From Methanobacteriota archaeon (GTDB lineage Archaea > Thermoplasmatota > Poseidoniia > Poseidoniales > Poseidoniaceae), in assembly GCA_002720275.1 (NCBI GenBank), contig PBHR01000001.1, positions 10,126-74,125 of the forward strand: 64,000 nt of DNA. Reading direction: 5' to 3'. Shown here piece after piece: positions 5,209-48,394 of the stretch. Within the stretch, counting starts at the first letter, position 1, and every line of letters starts with the position of its first letter. The notes under the pieces were generated by a model that saw nothing but the letters and a program-made list of their open reading frames with translations, searched no databases and had not been told where the DNA came from. A program made the translations under genes and the position numbers.

Positions 5209-6222
5209 TTACCATCCTCTATTTTCTAATTTAACATCTAATTTTTCAATTTCTAAGCCTGGCATTGCTTCACCTACCATTGATGAAGCTTCGGCAACCT
5301 TTTCTGCATCATCAAAATGGTGTGTAGAATAAACGATTGCTTCGGCTGTTTGAGTTGGATTTTCACTTTTGAAAATTCCTGAACCCACAAATATTCCATC
5401 CATTCCCATATTCATCATTAATGCAGCATCTGCAGGAGTTGCAATTCCACCTGCTGAAAATGTAACAACAGGCAACCTTCCTAATTTCATAATTTCCTTT
5501 GCCACATTATGCACACCTTCCCTACAATCATCCATACTGCCAAATGGAATTTTACTAATCCCACTGCTTAATTCAGATGTATTGCCTAAATTCATAAATC
5601 TCTCAGAAATTAATTTTATGGAATTATTAAATGTGTCGTCATCAGCATCTTGTAAAAATTTAATTTCATCATCAATTAGTCTTGCATGTTTTACAGCAGA
5701 AACAATGTTCCCCGTTCCTGCTTCACCTTTTGTACGAATCATTGCAGCACCTTCAAAGATTCTTCGAACGGCTTCACCTAAATTCGTTGCACCACAAACA
5801 AAGGGAATAGTAAACTCATTTTTTGGAATGTGGTAAAATGGATCTGCGGGAGTTAATACTTCACTTTCATCTACCATATCAACACCTAATGTTTCTAGTA
5901 CACGAGCTTCTTGTGAATGTCCAATTCTAGCCTTAGCCATTACAGGTATAGATGTAGTTTCAATAATTTCCTTAATTAGGTCTGGATGACTCATTCTTGC
6001 AACACCACCATCTTTACGAATGTCTGCAGGGACTCTTTCAAGTGCCATTACGGAACAAGCACCAGCATCCTCTGCGATATGTGCTTGTTCTGCATTAACT
6101 ACATCCATGACAACACCTCCTTGTTGCATTCTTGCAAAACCGCGTTTTAACAATTCAGTGCCGTAGCGCATAGAACTTAAATCAAATTTTTGAACCAAAT
6201 AATCACCTTTTATATCACTCAT
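5209..6222 (-). CDS. pdxS: Pyridoxal 5'-phosphate synthase lyase subunit PdxS
   Basis: Motifs [87 protein letters not shown] and C-terminal ENRGW. About 25-aa insertion relative to the canonical length. Confidence 0.9.
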
Positions 6223-6493
6223 CTGCCAGAATTGGGGACTCTCCAGTTGCCACTTCTAATCTAGAGGCTTCATTTTCATTTCTCTCAATCCAGTATTCTT
6301 CTATTTCTGGAACATCGTAGTCTGCATAAATCGCATCAACAGGACATTCAGGGACACAAGCAGCACAATCAATGCATTCATCGGGATCAATTACGAGATA
6401 TGTTTCAGCTTCCCTAAACGCTTCCACAGGACAAACTGAGACACATTCCTGATACTTGCAACTGACGCATCCACTTACTACAACATGTGTCAT
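6215..6493 (-). CDS. fdx: Ferredoxin, 2x[Fe-S] (7Fe/8Fe type)
   Basis: [18 protein letters not shown] and [16 protein letters not shown] cysteine clusters. 8-nt overlap with pdxS. Confidence 0.8.
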
Positions 6494-6566: not shown

Positions 6567-7046
6567 TTAAATTATTGTTGAGGGTGGAGAATCTAACCAA
6601 CCTCTTCTACTACATCTTTCTAAAGATTCATTTAGTAATTTTAATAAAACGTCTTGAGGTTTTTCACCGGGATAAACTTCAATTTTAGCAACCATCTTGA
6701 TAATGTCTTCATTATTGTTTCCTAAAACAATCTTACCTTTAACAAGTTCATTCTGACTCAATCTGAAATGTAATCTATTTTCATCATCAAGCCTTTCATT
6801 TTTTTCATTAATTAATAAATTAAGCAAATCTCCACCTAATCTTGAAAATGTTAATCTTGATTGACTTCTTGTTAGTTTAACCTTGATTAAAGTTATTGGT
6901 GATCCAAAAAAGGAGGTGCTTTTTTCTAAGTAAACTATATCCTTTTTGTCACACAACCATTCTAAACTTTTTGTGATTAAATCAACATCATGTAATCCTG
7001 ATGCAGTAGTGGAACATGACAATGAATGTATGGGCATGTTGTCCAC
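6567..7046 (-). CDS. Hypothetical protein (possible small RNA-binding-type domain)
   Basis: 159-aa ORF, no diagnostic motif recognised. Confidence 0.35.
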   Translation of the reverse strand: MDNMPIHSLSCSTTASGLHDVDLITKSLEWLCDKKDIVYLEKSTSFFGSPITLIKVKLTRSQSRLTFSRLGGDLLNLLINEKNERLDDENRLHFRLSQNELVKGKIVLGNNNEDIIKMVAKIEVYPGEKPQDVLLKLLNESLERCSRRGWLDSPPSTII

Positions 7047-7179
7047 TAGGAGGTGCAGTGAATATATGATTCTATTTTAGTTTGGAGCCACATTTTTTAA
7101 TAATTTATGTAATTCAATATACCATGCAATTCATATATGCGTCTTAGGTCGCAGAGGCGCTACACTGAGTGAGATACCT

Positions 7180-8136
7180 ATGGCTGTAAGAACTAGCGCA
7201 CAATCTCGAAATCTGGCTAGAAAGCAGAGAGATAAGTGGAAAGCAAAAAGAATTTTTTCAATTAGGGCACCAAGAAACCCTTGGCAGTATAAGAAAATTG
7301 GAGAAACTTTTGGTGAAAGTGAGCAATTTATTGAAGGTAGAATTTTTCAAACAACACAACAAGAGTTTGATGGTGATTTTACTAAAATGCACGTCAAATT
7401 AAATTTCAGGATTGTTGAAGTGATTAATCAGGATGCAATTACAGAATTTGTAGGACACGCTCATCAAAATGATCACATCAGAAGGCAAATAAGACGCTAT
7501 AGAGGAAAAGTAGATGGTGTAGTTGACGTAGTTACTAATGATGGTTATTTGGTTCGATTGAAACCATTGATTGTAACAGAAGGAAGAGTTACAAGCAGTA
7601 TGAAGAAAGTAATGAGGAGAACAGTTTCCGAAATTATTACTACATTTGGTTCATCGTGTACATATCCAAATTTGCAAAAAGCAATTTTAGGTTCTGATAT
7701 TGAAACAAGCATGGTTAAAGCATTAAATCCAATTGCAAAAGTTCGTTCTGCGGTAATTGCAAAAAGCCAATTATTAAAATCAGGAGTAGTGAGTTCAGAA
7801 GGTCCAACATTGGATGAAATTCATGCTGCGGAAGTTAAAGCTGAAGCAGAATTGAAGGCTAAAAAGCAGGCAACAGAATCTGAAGTTGACGAAGCACCTA
7901 CGATTCTTGAAGCAGCAGAGGCTATGGAATCAATCAGTGAAAAAGTTTCACAAACATCCTCTGAAGAAATTTCAGATGAGAAAGAAGGAATTGCTAACCC
8001 AGAAGAAGGAACAGTAAGTGAAGATGTTGATTATCAATCTATGACAGTACCTCAATTAAAAGAATTATTAAAGGCTGCAGGAAAACCTGTTTCTGGCAAG
8101 AAGTCGGATTTGATTGAAAGACTTACTGGAGAGTGA
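7180..8136 (+). CDS. rps3ae: 30S ribosomal protein S3Ae (eS1) with C-terminal acidic linker and SAP motif
   Basis: N-terminus RNLARKQRDKWKAKRIFSIRAPRNPWQYKKIGETF is typical S3Ae. The 318-aa length is about 100 aa longer than usual. C-terminus MTVPQLKELLKAAGKPVSGKKSDLIERL matches the SAP consensus. Confidence 0.8.
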   Translation: MAVRTSAQSRNLARKQRDKWKAKRIFSIRAPRNPWQYKKIGETFGESEQFIEGRIFQTTQQEFDGDFTKMHVKLNFRIVEVINQDAITEFVGHAHQNDHIRRQIRRYRGKVDGVVDVVTNDGYLVRLKPLIVTEGRVTSSMKKVMRRTVSEIITTFGSSCTYPNLQKAILGSDIETSMVKALNPIAKVRSAVIAKSQLLKSGVVSSEGPTLDEIHAAEVKAEAELKAKKQATESEVDEAPTILEAAEAMESISEKVSQTSSEEISDEKEGIANPEEGTVSEDVDYQSMTVPQLKELLKAAGKPVSGKKSDLIERLTGE

Positions 8137-8159
8137 GTAAGTATCTGAGGGGGGACCTC

Positions 8160-8945
8160 ATGAAGAGAATTGGATTAATTGGTGGAACCGGTCTATTTGG
8201 TTTAAATTCAGAATTAATATCTTCTTGGAATTTAATTGATACTACAGATTTGGCTGTAGAAACACCTTACGGGGAAGTTCCAATAACTGTTTTTGATTTT
8301 CAAAAAGAAGATCAAAATTGTAAGATATTTTTTCTTCAAAGACACCATAATATTGGTGGAAAAACAAAAACACCCCACAAAATAAATCATCTTGCAAATA
8401 TTTCTGCAATTTTATCTTGTAATGTTGAATTCACAGTAGCAGTTTGCTCTGTAGGGGCAATTAATGAGGATTTTGTTCCAGGAATGGTTGGTTTAGCTGA
8501 ACAATATATTGATTTTAGCGGCATCCCAATTAGTTTTCAAAATAATGATGCTGAATTTACTTCTATGACATCTCCTTTTGATGCAGATTTAAATGATAAG
8601 TTGTTGAAGTCTTTAAGAGAATCACAGCCTCAATTTTCTGATTTGGGAGATGAAAAATTCCGATTTACATATTGGTTTAGTCCTGGTCCACAATTTGAAA
8701 CACCTGCTGAAATTAGAGCAATTTCAAAATTAGGAGGGGATTGTGTTGGAATGACTTTAGCCCCAGAAGCAAAATTAATGGCAGAAAAAGGACATAAATT
8801 TTCAGCAATTTTAATTGCTGGAAATTATGCTGCTGGATTAGATCCTTCAAATCCACTTGCAAAATTAGATCATGAAAAAATTTCATCAAAGGCAACATCA
8901 CGCTCGGACCCTGTTTTATTTTCCTTGAGTAAATTATTTGGTTAA
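8160..8945 (+). CDS. mtnP: 5'-methylthioadenosine/purine nucleoside phosphorylase family
   Basis: MKRIGLIGGTGLFG glycine loop and FLQRHHNIGG...PHKINHLANI match PNP/MTAP. GAGGGGGG Shine-Dalgarno-like motif lies 8 nt upstream of this ATG (the track's GTG start at 8133 is less likely). Confidence 0.7.
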   Translation: MKRIGLIGGTGLFGLNSELISSWNLIDTTDLAVETPYGEVPITVFDFQKEDQNCKIFFLQRHHNIGGKTKTPHKINHLANISAILSCNVEFTVAVCSVGAINEDFVPGMVGLAEQYIDFSGIPISFQNNDAEFTSMTSPFDADLNDKLLKSLRESQPQFSDLGDEKFRFTYWFSPGPQFETPAEIRAISKLGGDCVGMTLAPEAKLMAEKGHKFSAILIAGNYAAGLDPSNPLAKLDHEKISSKATSRSDPVLFSLSKLFG

Positions 8946-9428
8946 TTTTTCAAAAGTCTTAATTTTATATGAAAAGTCATCATTTTCTTCTTTAATACTC
9001 TTGGTAGTATCTATTATTTTCCAACATTCTTTGTCAAATTCAGGAAAAAATGCATCAGCAGAATTAACCTCTGTTTCGACAAAACTTAGAATCATTTTAG
9101 TTGCAATTTTCAAAAAGGACTTATAAATTTCTGCACCCCCTATTATGAAAATTTCATTTTCATTAATACAAATAGAATTAATATCATTAGGATCGTTAAT
9201 TGTTATAACTCCTTCTTTTTCCCAATTTTTATTTCTAGTTAGCACTACATTTTTCCTATTAGGGAGTGCCTTGCCAATAGAATCAAAGGTTTTTCTACCC
9301 ATTACAATCGTACTTCCTGTTGTAATTTTTTTGAAATGTTTCAAATCCGAACTTAGGTGCCATGGTAAATCGCCTTGTTTACCAATTGCTTGGTTTTTAT
9401 CAAAGGCTGCTATCAAAGTAATATCCAT
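8934..9428 (-). CDS. folA: Dihydrofolate reductase
   Basis: ITLIAAFDKNQAIGKQGDLPWHLSSDLKHFKKITTGSTIVMGRKTFDSIG. 12-nt convergent overlap with mtnP. Confidence 0.85.
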   Translation of the reverse strand: MDITLIAAFDKNQAIGKQGDLPWHLSSDLKHFKKITTGSTIVMGRKTFDSIGKALPNRKNVVLTRNKNWEKEGVITINDPNDINSICINENEIFIIGGAEIYKSFLKIATKMILSFVETEVNSADAFFPEFDKECWKIIDTTKSIKEENDDFSYKIKTFEKLTK

Positions 9429-9436
9429 ATAATCAC

Positions 9437-10231
9437 TTATATCGAGATTGGAGCTTTGATGTGTGGGTGATGTTCATAATCTAAAATTATAAAATCATCA
9501 AATTTAAATTCATCAATATTTGTTATGTTTTTATTAATTTCAATTTTTGGTAATTTCTTTGGAGTTCTACTTAATTGTATCTTAGTTTGTTCTATATGGT
9601 TTTTGTATAGGTGTGCATCTCCAAGAGTATGTACGAATTCTCCAGGCTTTAGATTGGTAATTTGAGCCATCATTAATGTCAATAGACTATATGATGCAAT
9701 ATTGAATGGGACTCCAAGAAAAACATCTGCACTTCTTTGGTAAAGTTGACAAGATAATTTCCCATCAGCGACATAAAACTGGAAAAATGCATGACAAGGC
9801 ATCAAGGCCATTTCATCTAATTCTCCAACATTCCAAGCACTAACAATAATTCTTCTTGAATTTGGATTGTTTTTAATTGCCTCAATTGCATTTTCTACTT
9901 GGTCAATTATTTCACCCTCTTTTGATTCCCATTTCCTCCATTGTTGACCATAAACGGGTCCTAGGTCGCCTTCTTCATCAGCCCATTCATTCCAAATACG
10001 CACGCCATTTTCTTGGAGATATTCAACATTCGTGTCGCCTTTTAGAAACCATAATAATTCATGAATAATCGATTTCAAATGAAGTTTTTTAGTTGTAACC
10101 ATTGGAAATCCTTTTGACAAATCAAACCTCATTTGGTGTCCAAAAACGGAAATAGTCCCCGTCCCTGTACGGTCTTCTTTAGCAATTCCTTCGTCAAGAA
10201 TACGCTGCATTAGTTCGAGATACTGCTCCAT
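9437..10231 (-). CDS. thyA: Thymidylate synthase ThyA
   Basis: [29 protein letters not shown], active-site region [15 protein letters not shown]-terminal [11 protein letters not shown]-like tail. Confidence 0.9.
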
Positions 10232-10273: not shown

Positions 10274-11059
10274 TCAAACGGCACCCATATTTTTCAAAGT
10301 ATTCATGAATTGATCTGTAAATCTTCTATACAAACCGCTTAATTTTTGTTTCTGCTTTTCAGGACTTTGATTCACTAGTTCATTTAGTTCATCTTCATTT
10401 AAATTACCACCTTTTTCGTGAAAAATCCATTCTTTCCATGTAATTCCTTTTCCAAAGTGAAATGTTACAGGTTTCCAAAATCTAGGGAATTTATGTGCTT
10501 TAGGTTGCATAAAATCTCTTGTGCCCTCACAAACTACGGGCACAATTAATACATCTGGGTAAGATGCTGCTAATCTCGCAATTCCTGTTTTTCCTTTTCC
10601 TAGAAATGGTGGCTCAGTATTTCTAGATCTTGTTCCTTCTGGGAAAATACCCATACATTTCCCTCTTTCTAGAATACCACTTGCTGTAGATAATGCTTCA
10701 CCTCCACCTTTTTCTCTAACAGTCTTTATTTGTCCTGTTGAAGATACTACAAAACGAGTTAGGAATCTTTCAAAATGTTCATGCTTAGCTAAAAAATGAA
10801 GTTTTCTTCTTGAGCCCGCAATCATGAAAAGAGGGTCAACATGTGAGAGGTGATTTGAAGCAAAAATAACAGGGCCCTTTTTTGGAATATTATTAATTCC
10901 AGTAAAATTTGCAGGGAAGAGTGAACGAAATACTTGACCTAAAACTAATCTTAGAAATGAGTATATTGGCGTGCTTAGGTTTTTGAAATTATAGGGTTTT
11001 ATTTTTATCATTTTTGTTAATTTTTTTAATGCTGAATTCTCGATATTTTCAGAACCCAT
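10274..11059 (-). CDS. plsC: 1-acyl-sn-glycerol-3-phosphate acyltransferase family (PlsC-like)
   Basis: HX4D motif FASNHLSHVDP and FPEGTRS motif. Confidence 0.75.
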   Translation of the reverse strand: MGSENIENSALKKLTKMIKIKPYNFKNLSTPIYSFLRLVLGQVFRSLFPANFTGINNIPKKGPVIFASNHLSHVDPLFMIAGSRRKLHFLAKHEHFERFLTRFVVSSTGQIKTVREKGGGEALSTASGILERGKCMGIFPEGTRSRNTEPPFLGKGKTGIARLAASYPDVLIVPVVCEGTRDFMQPKAHKFPRFWKPVTFHFGKGITWKEWIFHEKGGNLNEDELNELVNQSPEKQKQKLSGLYRRFTDQFMNTLKNMGAV

Positions 11060-25891: not shown

Positions 25892-25965
25892 GGGCCCGTG
25901 GGTTAGTTTGGCTATGCTTGGAGCTTTGGGAGCTTTAGACCCCGGTTCAAATCCGGGCGGGCCCA
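25892..25965 (+). tRNA. tRNA-Pro (anticodon UGG)
   Basis: Perfect 7-bp acceptor stem GGGCCCG/CGGGCCC with discriminator A. T-arm CCCGG-UUCAAAU-CCGGG. Anticodon stem GGAGC/GCUUU with loop UUUGGGA. Oligo-T immediately downstream. D-stem pairing is weak. Confidence 0.7.
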
Positions 25966-27011: not shown

Positions 27012-28739
27012 ATGGCAGAGGATATGGAGTCACTTTCAGTCCCTGAACTCAAAAAAATTTTAAAAAATAAAAATTTACCAGTTTCTGGAAGAAAAAGTGA
27101 TTTGATTAAGAGGCTGGCGGAAGAAAACGCAAAAGATATTCAAATTTCAATACCTTTGTATAGTGAAAATAATCTTTGGAGGAGACTAAGAAATAAGAAA
27201 TGGGAACTTCGTAATGGTTATGTAATTTCAGCCGTTCATGTTTTTGTTAGTTTAATGGTTATTTTATCTACAGCAGGACTTGGTGCATATGCAGTGTCCC
27301 AATTTAATTCAAAAACACCAGATTATAATTTAATTCAATTCGATAGTTCCAAGGCAAGAGAATATACTCAGATGTTAGTTGATTTAGGTCATCCAGAATG
27401 GAACGGTAGGATGAGTGGATCAGTTGAAGAGCAAGCCACAGTAGACGCCATACAACAGAACTTTACAGAAATGGGTCTTATGTTGCAATATGAAACTTTC
27501 AATGTCCCTATGTTTGAAATCCGTTCTGAACCAGAACTTTCTATGTGTATACCAGGGGAGTACCCTTTTAGTCTTCAGAGTCCAACTCCTTGTGGCACCA
27601 CAGATATTAACGCAGAAATTATAAATTTTAATCATTTAACTGATTTTGTTTTACAAGGTTATTCCGGCACTAGAGAAATTCAGTTCTGGCAGGATGAATT
27701 TACAATTGCAAATCTTTCTGATGGAAGCGATGATTCCCTTTGGGATAATGCAAGTGGTCAAGTAGGTATATTGTGGTTAGATTCAGTGGGAGTTACAAGT
27801 AATACTGAATTTTATGCTAAAGCTAGAGATTCAAGTTTAGCGGGATTAATTATTGCAATTAATAAAGGAAATACTTGCAAACTCCCTTCATTAGAGGGAA
27901 CTTGTGTTCCATTTTTCAAAACTGTTGATGTGACTGAGTTAGGGACAATGCCAACAGATATTGCATTTATTATGGTTTCAAATGATGTTGGTAAAACGTT
28001 AAGTGATACTTTTGGAAATAAAGATCAAAATGATGTACGATTGAATTTAGTTACTGATGTTTATAATGATGGAACAATGGATGTTAGAGTACCTTGTGGA
28101 GTTTTACCTGGACAAACAGATGAATTAATCATAATTGGTGGTCATCATGATACAACATATAATGCGCCAGGGGCAGTTGATGATTCAAGTGGAGTTGCTA
28201 ACGTATTAGAATTAGCAAGGCAATTTAGCCTTTTATCAAATGAAATAGGCCCCTCCTATTATACCATTAAGTTTTGTACTTGGGGGGGTGAAGAAGAAGG
28301 TTTACATGGTTCAACAGCGTATGTAGATATGCATTCTATAGAATTATCCGAGATGCTCAGGCTCTATGTTAATTTTGACATGCCTCATGTAGATATTGAT
28401 TTAGAAACTAGAGGTAATAGCATTTCATTTTATGGTAATGGGATAGAAGATTTAGAGCATATATCAAACATTATTGAAGTTTTTAATAAAGAACAACCTG
28501 AAATTTCATCAAAATACGATTTAAGTTATTTCTATCAAAATGATGATGAGATCGCATGTAGTTCAGATCATTGTCCCTTTGTTAAAAAAATAAGTAAAGA
28601 CATTGTTGGTAGTTATGGCGGTGGCTCTTGGGAATATCATACTTACTTAGACGACATGTCTCGTTTTAATGAAGAAAGTTTATTTGTTACTGGAACTATC
28701 TTAGGTTCATATGTATTATATCTGGGATGGGGTGAATGA
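27012..28739 (+). CDS. Membrane-anchored M28-family metallopeptidase with N-terminal cytoplasmic SAP motif
   Basis: SAP: LSVPELKKILKNKNLPVSGRKSDLIKRLAEE. TM VISAVHVFVSLMVILSTAGLGAYAV. M28 metal ligands IIIGGHHDT...VDDSSGVANVLELAR...WGGEEEGLHGS...HCPF. Confidence 0.7.
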   Translation: MAEDMESLSVPELKKILKNKNLPVSGRKSDLIKRLAEENAKDIQISIPLYSENNLWRRLRNKKWELRNGYVISAVHVFVSLMVILSTAGLGAYAVSQFNSKTPDYNLIQFDSSKAREYTQMLVDLGHPEWNGRMSGSVEEQATVDAIQQNFTEMGLMLQYETFNVPMFEIRSEPELSMCIPGEYPFSLQSPTPCGTTDINAEIINFNHLTDFVLQGYSGTREIQFWQDEFTIANLSDGSDDSLWDNASGQVGILWLDSVGVTSNTEFYAKARDSSLAGLIIAINKGNTCKLPSLEGTCVPFFKTVDVTELGTMPTDIAFIMVSNDVGKTLSDTFGNKDQNDVRLNLVTDVYNDGTMDVRVPCGVLPGQTDELIIIGGHHDTTYNAPGAVDDSSGVANVLELARQFSLLSNEIGPSYYTIKFCTWGGEEEGLHGSTAYVDMHSIELSEMLRLYVNFDMPHVDIDLETRGNSISFYGNGIEDLEHISNIIEVFNKEQPEISSKYDLSYFYQNDDEIACSSDHCPFVKKISKDIVGSYGGGSWEYHTYLDDMSRFNEESLFVTGTILGSYVLYLGWGE

Positions 28740-42112: not shown

Positions 42113-42186
42113 GGGCCTGTAGCTTAGTCAGGTAGAGCGACGGACTCTTAATCCGTAGGCCGCGGGTTCGAACCCCGTCAGGCCCG
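42113..42186 (+). tRNA. tRNA-Lys (anticodon CUU)
   Basis: Acceptor GGGCCUG/CAGGCCC with discriminator G. D-stem GCUU/GAGC. Anticodon stem ACGGA/UCCGU with loop CUCUUAA. T-arm GCGGG-UUCGAAC-CCCGU. Confidence 0.8.
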
Positions 42187-48093: not shown

Positions 48094-48394
48094 TTGAGGG
48101 AGTGAAGAGTAAGCCCCTTTTTGTTCACCTTTCGGTTGACCGCATTCAACTATGCGTCCTACCCTTCCCTAAGCGTGCAACCTCTACGGGATTTTTTGGA
48201 CTTGCTCCAATGAGGATATTCGTTTCAGCAATTATTGAGCAATCTCCTCTTTTCAGATTCATCGTTAACACCCATAATCGTTCGTTTCTACTATATTGCC
48301 AGCCATTCCTGACTCCATTTCTGGTCATCTCGCACTATGGAGAGGGGACTTTCCTCAGGGTCTAACCCTGTCAGCGGTCCTTCCACTCCCTCAA
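48094..48394 (-). ncRNA. rnpB: RNase P RNA (archaeal)
   Basis: Minus-strand read shows P1 pairing UUGAGGGAGUG/CACUCCCUCAA at the two ends. P3 hairpin CAGGGUUAGACCCUG. CR-I GAGGAAAGUCCCC. CR-V-like ACAAAAAGGGGCUUAC co-varying with CR-I (CCCC/GGGG). Local GC is higher than the surroundings and no plausible CDS is present. Confidence 0.65.

What the first reader, a model, noticed from the sequence alone, without database searches (positions are those of the whole stretch)
7180..8136. Ribosomal protein S3Ae carrying a C-terminal acidic linker plus a SAP DNA/RNA-binding motif
The N-terminal ~215 aa are canonical S3Ae. They are followed by an ~70-aa Glu/Ser-rich linker ending in MTVPQLKELLKAAGKPVSGKKSDLIERL, a textbook SAP helix-loop-helix. 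SAP is mostly a eukaryotic chromatin/RNA-processing module. Fusion to a small-subunit ribosomal protein is unusual and could tether ribosomes to nucleic acid or reflect a moonlighting role.
Basis: partly seen in the sequence, partly recalled or inferred. Interest (0 to 1): 0.6.

Follow-up and report, generated by a model that had tools for sequence, protein, structure and literature searches.

The report
Ribosomal protein eS1 with DNA-binding tail
In the abundant marine archaea of Marine Group II, the small-subunit ribosomal protein eS1 (S3Ae), which lines the mRNA exit of the ribosome, always carries a long acidic arm ending in a SAP domain, a small DNA-binding module best known from eukaryotic chromatin proteins; this suggests, but does not show, that these ribosomes are loosely tethered to nucleic acid.

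Summary
ORF 7180..8136 (+), 318 aa, is uninterrupted. It has a Pfam Ribosomal_S3Ae core (aa 13-200, 150 bits) and a C-terminal SAP (aa 284-316, 46.8 bits against a gathering score of 23.9).

It is not an assembly artefact. Of the 80 best Poseidoniales (MGII) species genomes, 79 encode the same fusion; the other locus is cut by its contig end. SAP is the most conserved part of the protein (77% median identity against 59% for the core), and its dN/dS is close to the core's.

The "linker" is structured: a helix (211-236), a near-invariant helical motif ILxAAEAMExxSEK (242-256), then about 27 fast-evolving acidic disordered residues.

A second Poseidoniia lineage (probably MGIII) also has S3Ae+SAP. 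Other Thermoplasmatota carry HhH (HHH_5), Lys-rich or purely acidic tails at the same position. The eS1 C-terminus is therefore a recurrent attachment point for non-specific nucleic-acid binders.

No solved archaeal eS1 has such a tail, and no paper found describes it. Databases annotate it automatically as "SAP domain-containing protein".

My best reading is a flexible tether near the mRNA exit that binds nucleic acid, with duplex DNA the likeliest ligand. mRNA capture is the main rival. This is a new variant of a known kind, and its function is untested.

The parts
7130..7179 (+). Putative promoter and 5' leader of the S3Ae gene. It has a TATA-like TTCATATA followed by a leader conserved in the window's clade and an SD-like GAGTGAGAT.
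   Evidence: Nucleotide-level conservation with L001, L004 and L006. Poseidoniaceae relatives have TTCAAATA plus an almost invariant GUGGGG-UAGC-CCCCGC hairpin at the equivalent place. The role is inferred and was not tested.
7180..8136 (+). Complete gene for eS1/S3Ae with a C-terminal extension and SAP (318 aa plus stop).
7216..7779 (+). Ribosomal_S3Ae (eS1) core, aa 13-200.
   Evidence: Pfam 150.4 bits. phmmer to solved archaeal eS1 chains 6skf, 9fhl and 4v6u, E 1e-28 to 1e-24. Foldseek of the model to eS1 chains.
7810..7887 (+). Charged Ala/Glu/Lys-rich helix, aa 211-236, preceded by the invariant GPTLDEIH. A likely rigid spacer leaving the ribosome surface.
   Evidence: AF2 helix with pLDDT about 80-85. 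Invariant columns. dN/dS 0.04-0.11. The spacer role is inferred.
7903..7947 (+). Near-invariant helical motif ILEAAEAMESISEKV (consensus ILxAAEAMExxSEK), aa 242-256. Partner unknown.
   Evidence: Columns L243, A245, A246, E247, A248, E250 and S253 are invariant in both alignments. E254 and K255 are invariant in 18 sequences and at least 90% conserved in 77 sequences. AF2 helix with pLDDT about 76. No Pfam or PDB match.
7948..8028 (+). Variable acidic, disordered linker, aa 257-283.
   Evidence: pLDDT about 48-60. Across 79 sequences (the window plus 78 species loci): length 16-44 aa, median 38% Asp+Glu, median net charge -9, 8% hydrophobic. Median identity 18% and dN/dS 0.2-0.96.
8029..8127 (+). 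SAP domain (helix-extended loop-helix), aa 284-316, at the extreme C-terminus.
   Evidence: Pfam PF02037 46.8 to 51.2 bits. AF2 pLDDT 91-93, helices 290-300 and 308-316. Foldseek top hits are Tho1, SARNP and MKL1 SAP at rmsd 0.7-1.8 A. Invariant columns D284, V290, L293, K294, L297, K298, G301-K308, L311, I312, R314.

Best explanation
This is the genuine, probably sole, eS1 (S3Ae) protein of a low-GC Marine Group II archaeon (Poseidoniales). It is extended at its C-terminus by a four-part arm: a charged helix of about 26 residues, a short invariant helical motif, an acidic disordered leash of about 27 residues, and a terminal SAP domain.

Shown here: the parts exist, they are encoded in one ORF, and they are conserved across the order. 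SAP is under purifying selection at least as strong as the ribosomal core. The domain has the SAP sequence signature and predicted fold.

From published structures: archaeal eS1 forms one wall of the mRNA exit and Shine-Dalgarno chamber on the platform of the small subunit, so the arm should emerge there into solvent.

Inferred mechanism: the negatively charged leash is repelled by rRNA and holds the SAP away from the ribosome surface. By my estimate the reach is roughly 100-200 A. The SAP then makes weak, sequence-independent contacts with nucleic acid. I commit to duplex DNA (the nucleoid) as the preferred ligand. On this reading, small subunits and ribosomes are kept loosely on the chromosome next to nascent transcripts, which would favour co-transcriptional initiation. 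The acidic leash would also keep the binding transient.
For: Identity of the parts.

Conservation: the best 120 cluster representatives (54-96% identity) nearly all carry PF01015 plus PF02037. 79 of the 80 best Poseidoniales species genomes have SAP, with 0-2 residues after it; the 80th is truncated. SAP shows 77% median identity against 59% for the core. dN/dS is 0.05-0.21 for SAP, 0.03-0.11 for the core and 0.2-0.96 for the acidic leash.

The leash keeps its composition but not its sequence: the extension before SAP has net charge -9 to -38 and length 64-114 aa.

Comparative argument for a nucleic-acid ligand: at the same C-terminal position, other archaeal S3Ae carry other modules. These include HHH_5 helix-hairpin-helix domains (9 of 9 tested above Pfam GA; about 60 of the listed clusters in Thermoplasmatota MAGs) and Lys-rich tails. 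A second Poseidoniia lineage again carries SAP on a 29-49 aa acidic leash.

Argument for DNA specifically: the closest solved relative, Tho1 SAP (42-48% identity, rmsd 1.0-1.7 A), binds dsDNA but not dsRNA (PMC4909252). Ku70 has the same layout of core, flexible linker and C-terminal SAP, and its SAP aids DNA binding and loading (PMC11936186). FAN1 and Ku70 SAPs appear bound to DNA among the fold hits. From general knowledge, (HhH)2 modules are classical non-specific dsDNA binders.

Position of eS1 at the mRNA exit and SD chamber: PMC7531240, PMC9932298, PMC7005279.
Against: No binding or localisation data exist; MGII archaea are uncultured. The eS1 site is the mRNA exit, which on its own points to RNA rather than DNA. 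At least one SAP (3'hExo) contacts an RNA stem-loop (fold hits 4l8r and 1zbh, plus general knowledge). The net charge of the SAP is only about +1, and it hangs on a strongly acidic leash, so affinity for any polyanion may be low. Many archaeal S3Ae tails are purely acidic with no binding module (22 of 87 representatives). The acidic tail itself may therefore be the primary functional element. The invariant motif at aa 242-256 is unexplained by this model. Whether the tail survives in mature ribosomes is unknown.
Confidence: 0.4

Rival explanations
1. mRNA-capture arm. The SAP (and the HhH or Lys-rich tails in other lineages) binds the 5' part of mRNAs, or structured RNA emerging from or approaching the exit channel. 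It would work like bacterial bS1 or eukaryotic eIF3 and eS26 at the same face of the subunit, raising the local mRNA concentration for initiation or holding a stand-by complex.
For: eS1 lines the mRNA exit and SD chamber (PMC7531240, PMC9932298). The 3'hExo SAP bound to an RNA stem-loop is among the fold hits. Lys-rich tails at the same position in other archaea would bind RNA as readily as DNA. Only some genes in the window show SD-like signals (GGTGA in 6 of 53 against 0.7 expected), which leaves room for an SD-independent recruitment aid.
Against: The closest characterised SAP (Tho1) did not bind dsRNA (PMC4909252). SAP and (HhH)2 domains are mainly documented as duplex-DNA binders. A leash of about 80 residues seems longer than needed to reach mRNA that exits right next to eS1. 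A near-identical SAP sits on the cytoplasmic end of a membrane peptidase in the same window, where mRNA capture makes little sense.
Confidence: 0.25
2. Ribosome-internal or inter-ribosome role. The SAP docks on an rRNA helix of the same subunit or a neighbouring one. It would act in 30S assembly, in polysome packing, or in subunit dimerisation and hibernation.
For: rRNA helices are the most abundant duplex nucleic acid near the tail. The invariant helical motif (aa 242-256) could be a docking element. Archaeal 30S dimerisation and hibernation factors are an active area (titles retrieved).
Against: The long, fast-evolving and strongly acidic leash with variable length (16-44 aa) argues for a free arm, not a fixed docking geometry. 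Replacement by unrelated folds (HhH, Lys-rich) in other lineages argues against one specific rRNA site.
Confidence: 0.12
3. Protein-recruitment or extraribosomal (moonlighting) role. The SAP or the invariant acidic helix recruits a protein partner (an initiation factor, RNA polymerase, helicase or chaperone), or the free protein acts off the ribosome.
For: Some members of the HeH/SAP/LEM clan bind proteins rather than nucleic acid (the LEM-BAF complex appears among the weak fold hits, 6ghd). The invariant amphipathic acidic motif looks like a short linear interaction motif. The same SAP type occurs on an unrelated membrane peptidase.
Against: No partner can be named. Convergent replacement by HhH and Lys-rich tails is more easily explained by a generic polyanion ligand. 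Only one S3Ae gene is seen in the window and one per fetched genome locus, so the protein must serve in the ribosome.
Confidence: 0.1
4. Artefact, or a non-functional appendage: a mis-assembly or frameshift that fuses two genes, or a neutral tail.
For: None found. The idea was considered only because the NCBIfam S3ae equivalog score (154.9) is below its cut-off of 198, and because one relative (P0036) has a degenerate SAP (20.6 bits).
Against: The same ORF occurs in 79 independent species genomes and in hundreds of metagenome clusters. There is purifying selection on SAP. GC3 is uniform. SAP is always terminal.
Confidence: 0.02

Closest known systems
Canonical archaeal eS1 / S3Ae (Pfam PF01015; solved in Thermococcus 6skf, Saccharolobus 9fhl, Pyrococcus 4v6u/6sw9, Methanosarcina 9o17)
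   Same: The core at aa 13-200 aligns end to end (E 1e-28 to 1e-21). The modelled C-terminal domain superposes on eS1 chains. The expected location is the platform, as one wall of the mRNA exit and SD chamber (PMC7531240).
   Different: All solved archaeal chains are 184-222 aa and end at about query residue 201. This protein has about 117 extra residues. Its core is divergent enough to miss the NCBIfam equivalog cut-off (154.9 against 198), so PGAP names it 'SAP domain-containing protein' or 'hypothetical'.
Ku70 C-terminus (flexible linker plus terminal SAP)
   Same: The same layout: a globular nucleic-acid-handling core, a flexible linker and a roughly 35-aa C-terminal SAP. The Ku70 SAP adds DNA affinity and aids loading (PMC11936186). 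The Ku70 SAP is a sequence hit (1jjr) and a fold hit (1jeq, 9q80).
   Different: The core is unrelated (a Ku beta-barrel against a ribosomal protein). Ku acts on DNA ends in eukaryotic nuclei. Here the linker is far more acidic and contains conserved helices.
Yeast Tho1 / human SARNP (Hcc-1) SAP domain
   Same: The closest solved SAP: 42-48% identity over 33-36 residues, rmsd 1.0-1.7 A, including the DYxS[ML]TV preamble. The Tho1 SAP binds dsDNA and not dsRNA (PMC4909252).
   Different: In Tho1 the SAP is N-terminal in a nuclear mRNP factor. There is no ribosomal context.
S3Ae + HHH_5 (helix-hairpin-helix) fusions in other Thermoplasmatota MAGs
   Same: The same host protein and the same C-terminal position. 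A flexible charged or Ala/Pro-rich linker ends in a small, non-sequence-specific duplex-binding module. These proteins are the nearest neighbours of the MGII clade on a crude core tree.
   Different: The fold of the terminal module differs ((HhH)2 against SAP). No description was found in the literature either.
Bacterial proteins at the equivalent ribosome face: bS6/bS18 (positional counterparts of eS1) and bS1
   Same: bS6 and bS18 occupy the place of eS1, and the eS1 C-terminal domain resembles bS6 (PMC9932298). From general knowledge, bS6 ends in an acidic tail that RimK lengthens with extra glutamates, and bS1 is a flexible multi-domain mRNA-catching arm near the exit.
   Different: There is no homology of the tails. 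bS1 uses OB-fold (S1) domains and binds single-stranded RNA. The analogy is functional and positional only, and is untested.

Membership tests
Ribosomal protein eS1 / S3Ae (PF01015) | Sequence match to the family model above the curated threshold | tested here: met
   Pfam 150.4 bits against GA 29.3, covering model positions 3-189 of 191.
Ribosomal protein eS1 / S3Ae (PF01015) | NCBIfam equivalog NF003142 (PRK04057) cut-off, used for automatic naming | tested here: not met
   154.9 bits against a cut-off of 198. This reflects a divergent core and explains the database name 'SAP domain-containing protein'. It does not contradict family membership, given the Pfam, PDB and fold matches.
Ribosomal protein eS1 / S3Ae (PF01015) | Fold of the eS1 globular domain | tested here: met
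   The Foldseek top 50 are all eS1 chains of archaeal and eukaryotic ribosomes (probability 1.00). Only the C-terminal domain (aa about 100-200) was modelled confidently.
Ribosomal protein eS1 / S3Ae (PF01015) | It is the organism's eS1 (no tail-less paralogue) and is incorporated in the 30S subunit | not testable with these tools
   Only one S3Ae ORF is in the 64-kb window, and there is one locus per fetched genome. Whole genomes and ribosomes could not be examined.
SAP domain (PF02037) | Sequence match above the curated threshold | tested here: met
   46.8 bits in the full protein and 51.2 bits in the tail alone, against GA 23.9. Relatives P0121 and P0161 score 51.3 and 58.3 bits.
SAP domain (PF02037) | Helix-extended loop-helix fold of about 35 residues | tested here: met
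   AF2 helices 290-300 and 308-316 with pLDDT 91-93. The best fold hits are Tho1, SARNP, MKL1 and E1B-AP5 SAP at rmsd 0.7-2.3 A and probability 0.98-1.00. Foldseek E-values are weak (at least 0.17) because the domain is tiny.
SAP domain (PF02037) | Conserved hydrophobic spacing, a loop glycine and basic residues | tested here: met
   Invariant across 77 sequences: V290, L293, K294, L297, K298, G301, K302, P303, V304, S305, G306, K307, K308, L311, I312, R314.
SAP domain (PF02037) | Binds DNA (S/MAR or generic duplex) | not testable with these tools
   Inferred from Tho1 and Ku70 (PMC4909252, PMC11936186).
HeH/LEM (PF12949) and Rho_N (PF07498) branches of the same clan | Match above the curated threshold | tested here: not met
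   HeH scores 15.0 to 21.0 bits against GA 28.9. Rho_N gives no hit. The domain is therefore a bona fide SAP rather than the generic prokaryotic HeH.

The most novel reading that the evidence does not exclude
Across the phylum Thermoplasmatota, the ribosome is physically tethered to the chromosome through DNA-binding modules grafted onto the C-terminus of eS1: SAP in Poseidoniia (MGII and a second, probably MGIII, lineage), and (HhH)2 or histone-H1-like Lys-rich tails elsewhere. This would be a ribosome-encoded mechanism for coupling translation to transcription and to the nucleoid. It would be distinct from the NusG/Spt5-type bridging known in bacteria, and it would have evolved several times at the same site. 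A corollary is that a true SAP domain, usually regarded as eukaryotic, is an established multi-use module in these archaea; it is also found on a membrane M28 peptidase in this window.
Probability: 0.2. Interest if true: 0.8.

Novelty: new variant of a known kind. Interest (0 to 1): 0.55.

Why it matters
Marine Group II archaea are among the most abundant archaea in the surface ocean, and their ribosomes have never been studied. A universally conserved, strongly selected DNA-type binding domain on a leash at the mRNA exit of the small subunit would be an unusual design feature. Parallel HhH and Lys-rich tails in related lineages make it look like a general solution rather than an oddity.

If the arm binds DNA, it offers a directly testable mechanism for how archaea keep translation coupled to transcription. 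If it binds RNA, it is an archaeal counterpart of bacterial bS1.

There is also a practical point. These proteins fall below the NCBI equivalog threshold and are named "SAP domain-containing protein" or "hypothetical". MGII genomes can therefore appear to lack S3Ae in automatic annotation and in marker-gene sets.

Tried and rejected
- **Frameshift or assembly chimera.** Rejected: one ORF in 79 species, uniform GC3, and SAP always terminal.
- **Eukaryotic contamination of the window.** Rejected: the window has archaeal RNase P RNA, all close relatives are Poseidoniales MAGs, and the neighbours are ordinary archaeal genes.
- **The region between core and SAP is only a low-complexity linker.** Rejected: it has invariant blocks and confident helices.
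- **The tail is a generic HeH, LEM or Rho_N domain rather than SAP.** Rejected on Pfam scores.
- **Similarity of aa 204-283 to anything solved or curated.** None was found. The phmmer alignments that run into eukaryotic eS1 tails were not supported when the tail was searched alone.
- **The multi-SAP proteins P0175, P0251 and P0260 belong to the same system.** P0175 and P0260 have signal- or transit-like N-termini and look eukaryotic. I set them aside.
- **SAP density in MGII genomes.** The 528 kb of fetched loci gave no further SAP genes. These loci are all the same neighbourhood, so this says little.
- **NJ tree of cores.** It is too weak to decide between one and two SAP acquisitions.
- **Rfam search of the conserved 5' leader.** No hit. 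The covariation test was uninformative because the hairpin is nearly invariant.
- **Literature searches.** Searches for S3Ae/eS1 with SAP or HhH, and for SAP with Poseidoniales, MGII or Thermoplasmatota, found no paper making the connection.
Full report
**1. Observation**

The window holds an uninterrupted ORF at 7180..8136 on the + strand: 318 aa, ATG start, TGA stop. Pfam assigns Ribosomal_S3Ae to aa 13-200 (E=5.5e-44, 150.4 bits, GA 29.3). It assigns SAP (PF02037) to aa 284-316 (E=2.1e-12, 46.8 bits, GA 23.9), or 51.2 bits when the last 48 residues are scanned alone. The related HeH/LEM model stays below its threshold, and Rho_N does not hit. The NCBIfam S3ae equivalog scores 154.9 bits, under its cut-off of 198.

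**2. Not an artefact, and not a one-off**

A search of 5.8 billion proteins returned 3731 relatives. The best 120 cluster representatives (54-96% identity) almost all carry both PF01015 and PF02037. Where they are named, they come from Poseidoniaceae, Poseidoniales or Thermoplasmatota MAGs, usually as "SAP domain-containing protein" or "hypothetical protein".

A scan of one genome per GTDB species found 308 genomes with a relative. The best 80 are all Marine Group II (Poseidoniales), and the match runs to query residue 315-318 in all but the truncated L053. When I re-derived the ORFs, 79 of 80 had the SAP, always with 0-2 residues after it. The exception (L053) is truncated by the end of its contig.

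The window itself is archaeal (RNase P RNA at 48098-48390) and has 33.6% GC. GC3 is uniform along the gene. Only one S3Ae ORF exists in the window.

**3. Anatomy of the extension**

Alignments of 18 and 77 MGII sequences show invariant blocks after the core: GPTLDEIH (aa 208-215), K226-A232, and ILxAAEAMExxSEK (aa 242-256).

An AlphaFold model of the extension alone (77-sequence alignment) gives these elements (the full-length model agrees):

| Element | Residues | pLDDT |
|---|---|---|
| Helix | 211-236 | about 80-85 |
| Helix (invariant motif) | 242-256 | about 76 |
| Disordered stretch | 257-284 | about 48-60 |
| Helix-loop-helix (SAP) | 290-300 and 308-316 | 91-93 |

Across 79 sequences (the window plus 78 species loci), the variable stretch is 16-44 aa long, with median 38% Asp+Glu, median net charge -9 and only 8% hydrophobic residues. 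The whole extension before SAP is 64-114 aa, with net charge -9 to -38. SAP itself has a net charge of about +1.

Selection by region:

| Region | Median identity to the window protein | dN/dS against six close relatives |
|---|---|---|
| Core | 59% | 0.03-0.11 |
| aa 204-256 | 57% | 0.04-0.11 |
| Acidic stretch | 18% | 0.2-0.96 |
| SAP | 77% | 0.05-0.21 |

dS is near saturation, so the ratios are rough. SAP is the best-conserved part of the protein. The leash conserves its composition, not its sequence.

**4. The SAP is a real SAP**

By sequence, the tail's best solved relatives are the Ku70 SAP (1jjr), the Tho1 SAP (1h1j, 4uzw) and the MKL1 SAP.

By fold, the top hits are:
- Tho1 (rmsd 1.0-1.7 A over 33-36 residues, 42-48% identity);
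- SARNP/Hcc-1, MKL1 and E1B-AP5;
- further down, the SAPs of FAN1 and Ku70 in DNA and nucleosome complexes, and the SAP of 3'hExo on the histone mRNA stem-loop.

Foldseek E-values are weak because the domain is tiny, but probabilities are 0.98-1.00. Invariant residues include the hydrophobic core, the loop glycines, and K294, K298, K302, K307, K308 and R314.

**5.

An exhaustive phmmer search of 1.84 billion representatives found 1469 relatives. Many archaeal S3Ae proteins at 31-36% identity are also long. Their tails fall into classes. Of 87 representatives with a near-complete core:

| Tail class | Count |
|---|---|
| No tail | 30 |
| Purely acidic | 22 |
| Lys/Arg-rich | 10 |
| Helix-hairpin-helix | 9 |
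| SAP | 7 |
| Other | 9 |

All nine HhH tails pass Pfam HHH_5 (29-58 bits, GA 27). A search seeded with one of them listed about 60 further S3Ae+HHH_5 clusters, and the ones that carry an organism name are labelled Thermoplasmatota.

A second SAP-bearing lineage (the P0161 group) has 92 complete clusters. Its acidic leash is 29-49 aa with charge -8 to -22. SAP is again terminal, and a few members add a further acidic tail. This lineage is labelled "Candidatus Poseidoniia archaeon", so it is probably the sister group, MGIII. Its core is only about 32% identical to the window protein, but its SAP is 59-66% identical. I could not decide between one ancient fusion and cassette exchange; the NJ tree is too weak.

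The C-terminus of eS1 is therefore a recurrent graft site for small, sequence-independent nucleic-acid binders on flexible charged linkers, especially in Thermoplasmatota.

**6. Where the arm sits**

All solved archaeal eS1 chains (184-222 aa) end at about query residue 201, so no structure shows such a tail. Published archaeal initiation complexes place eS1, together with uS11 and h26, as one wall of the mRNA exit chamber that holds the SD:anti-SD duplex. Bacterial bS6 and bS18 occupy the same place (PMC7531240, PMC9932298, PMC7005279; eS26 contacts eS1 there in Saccharolobus, PMC11698992).

The arm is a helix of about 40 A plus a leash of roughly 45 residues. I estimate that it could reach on the order of 100-200 A from the platform. 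That figure is my own estimate, not a computed result.

**7. Mechanism**

I take the arm to be a nucleic-acid "fishing line". The ligand I judge most likely is duplex DNA, for three reasons:
- Tho1 SAP, the closest relative, binds dsDNA but not dsRNA (PMC4909252).
- The same core-linker-SAP layout in Ku70 serves DNA binding and loading (PMC11936186).
- The alternative module chosen by sister lineages, (HhH)2, is a classical duplex-DNA binder (general knowledge).

A nearly identical SAP also sits on the cytoplasmic N-terminus of a membrane-anchored M28 peptidase in this same window, where a ubiquitous ligand such as the nucleoid is more plausible than mRNA.

Functionally, this would keep 30S subunits and ribosomes loosely on the chromosome, close to nascent transcripts. 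The acidic leash would keep the contact weak and transient, and would hold the SAP off the rRNA surface.

The main rival is mRNA capture at the exit site, analogous to bS1 or eIF3. The location and the 3'hExo precedent support it. SD-like signals are present but not universal in the window's genes (GGTGA in 6 of 53 upstream regions against 0.7 in shuffles; G enrichment at -11 to -6).

Lesser rivals are docking on rRNA (assembly, dimerisation or hibernation) and protein recruitment. The invariant motif at aa 242-256 is unexplained by any of these models. None of this is experimentally tested.

**8. Comparison with what is known, and novelty**

The protein is a member of the eS1/S3Ae family and carries a bona fide SAP domain (see the membership table). 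The architecture is visible in public databases through automatic annotation.

I found no paper that mentions S3Ae/eS1 together with SAP or HhH, or SAP together with Poseidoniales, MGII or Thermoplasmatota. The searchable library excludes most subscription journals. I therefore rate it a new variant of a known kind: an ordinary ribosomal protein with an undescribed, lineage-wide appended nucleic-acid-binding arm.

Interest is moderate to high (0.55), for three reasons. A specialist would be surprised by a SAP on a ribosomal protein conserved across a globally abundant group. The parallel HhH and Lys-rich tails strengthen the case for real function. And the idea bears on how archaea couple transcription and translation. 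The function is inferred, however, and the organisms are uncultured.

**9. Context and side observations**

Neighbours of the gene:

| Position | Coordinates | Annotation |
|---|---|---|
| Divergent, upstream | 6567-7046 (-) | PF01877 "RNA_binding" protein |
| Upstream | 6215-6493 (-) | Ferredoxin |
| Upstream | 5209-6222 (-) | PdxS |
| Downstream | about 8160-8945 (+) | PNP/MTAP-type phosphorylase |
| Downstream | 8934-9428 (-) | DHFR |
| Downstream | 9437-10231 (-) | ThyA |
| Downstream | 10274-11059 (-) | Acyltransferase |

Upstream of the S3Ae gene, Poseidoniaceae genomes share a TATA-like TTCAAATA. About 25 nt downstream lies an almost invariant GUGGGG-UAGC-CCCCGC hairpin, followed by an SD-like GAGNTGAT. 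The window's own clade lacks the hairpin but has its own conserved leader. Rfam has no match.

Noticed in passing
window 27012..28739 (+): A second SAP-domain protein in the same 64-kb window. It has an N-terminal SAP (aa 4-37, 41.9 bits), a hydrophobic, probably transmembrane segment (about aa 72-95, read from the sequence) and a Peptidase_M28 domain (aa 364-562). Its SAP is about 57% identical to the S3Ae SAP (...PVSGRKSDLIKRL). A cytoplasmic SAP on a membrane peptidase recalls eukaryotic inner-nuclear-membrane HeH/LEM proteins.
   Followed up: partly
L008-L072, about 85 nt upstream of the S3Ae start (e.g. L010:2868-2955); window 7130-7179: A conserved non-coding leader of the S3Ae gene in Poseidoniaceae: a TATA-like TTCAAATA, then a nearly invariant hairpin GUGGGG-UAGC-CCCCGC, then an SD-like GAGNTGAT. 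The window's clade has a 27-nt deletion of the hairpin but its own conserved leader. This is possibly an archaeal r-protein autoregulatory leader. Rfam gives no match, and the hairpin is too invariant for covariation (1 compensatory pair).
   Followed up: partly
proteins P0131, P0133, P0138, P0141, P0148, P0150, P0151, P0156, P0180 and the list: S3Ae fused to a C-terminal helix-hairpin-helix (HHH_5) domain in other Thermoplasmatota MAGs (about 60 of the listed clusters). Other archaeal S3Ae carry Lys-rich tails like those of histone H1 (P0152, P0155, P0163, P0179, P0238) or long, purely acidic tails. No paper was found on these either.
   Followed up: partly
L081 4001-4783 (P0374) and the P0161 group: A second, abundant marine S3Ae+SAP lineage (242-314 aa, labelled Candidatus Poseidoniia; probably MGIII). 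It has a shorter acidic leash and its own conserved motif LMEVPPxEEELExIL. Its SAP is about 60-66% identical to the MGII SAP, although the cores are only about 32% identical.
   Followed up: partly
proteins P0175 (462 aa, 5 SAP), P0260 (407 aa, 4 SAP), P0251 (685 aa, 6 SAP): Multi-SAP proteins from marine metagenomes whose repeats closely resemble the archaeal SAP (SMTVPQLK...SGKKSDLIxRL). P0175 and P0260 have signal- or transit-peptide-like N-termini and look eukaryotic. This raises the possibility of SAP exchange between marine eukaryotes and Poseidoniia.
   Followed up: no
window 7180..8136 and database names: An annotation pitfall. The MGII S3Ae core scores below the NCBIfam equivalog cut-off (154.9 against 198). 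PGAP therefore labels the ribosomal protein 'SAP domain-containing protein' or 'hypothetical protein', and MGII genomes may appear to lack S3Ae.
   Followed up: yes
window 48098..48390 (-); 25892..25965 (+); 42113..42186 (+): Archaeal RNase P RNA (213.9 bits) and two tRNA genes. They are useful as confirmation that the window is archaeal.
   Followed up: no
window 8133..8160: The mechanical ORF call for the downstream phosphorylase starts at a GTG at 8133, overlapping the S3Ae stop. The ATG at 8160, preceded by GAGGGGGGA (an SD-like motif), looks like the more plausible start.
   Followed up: no
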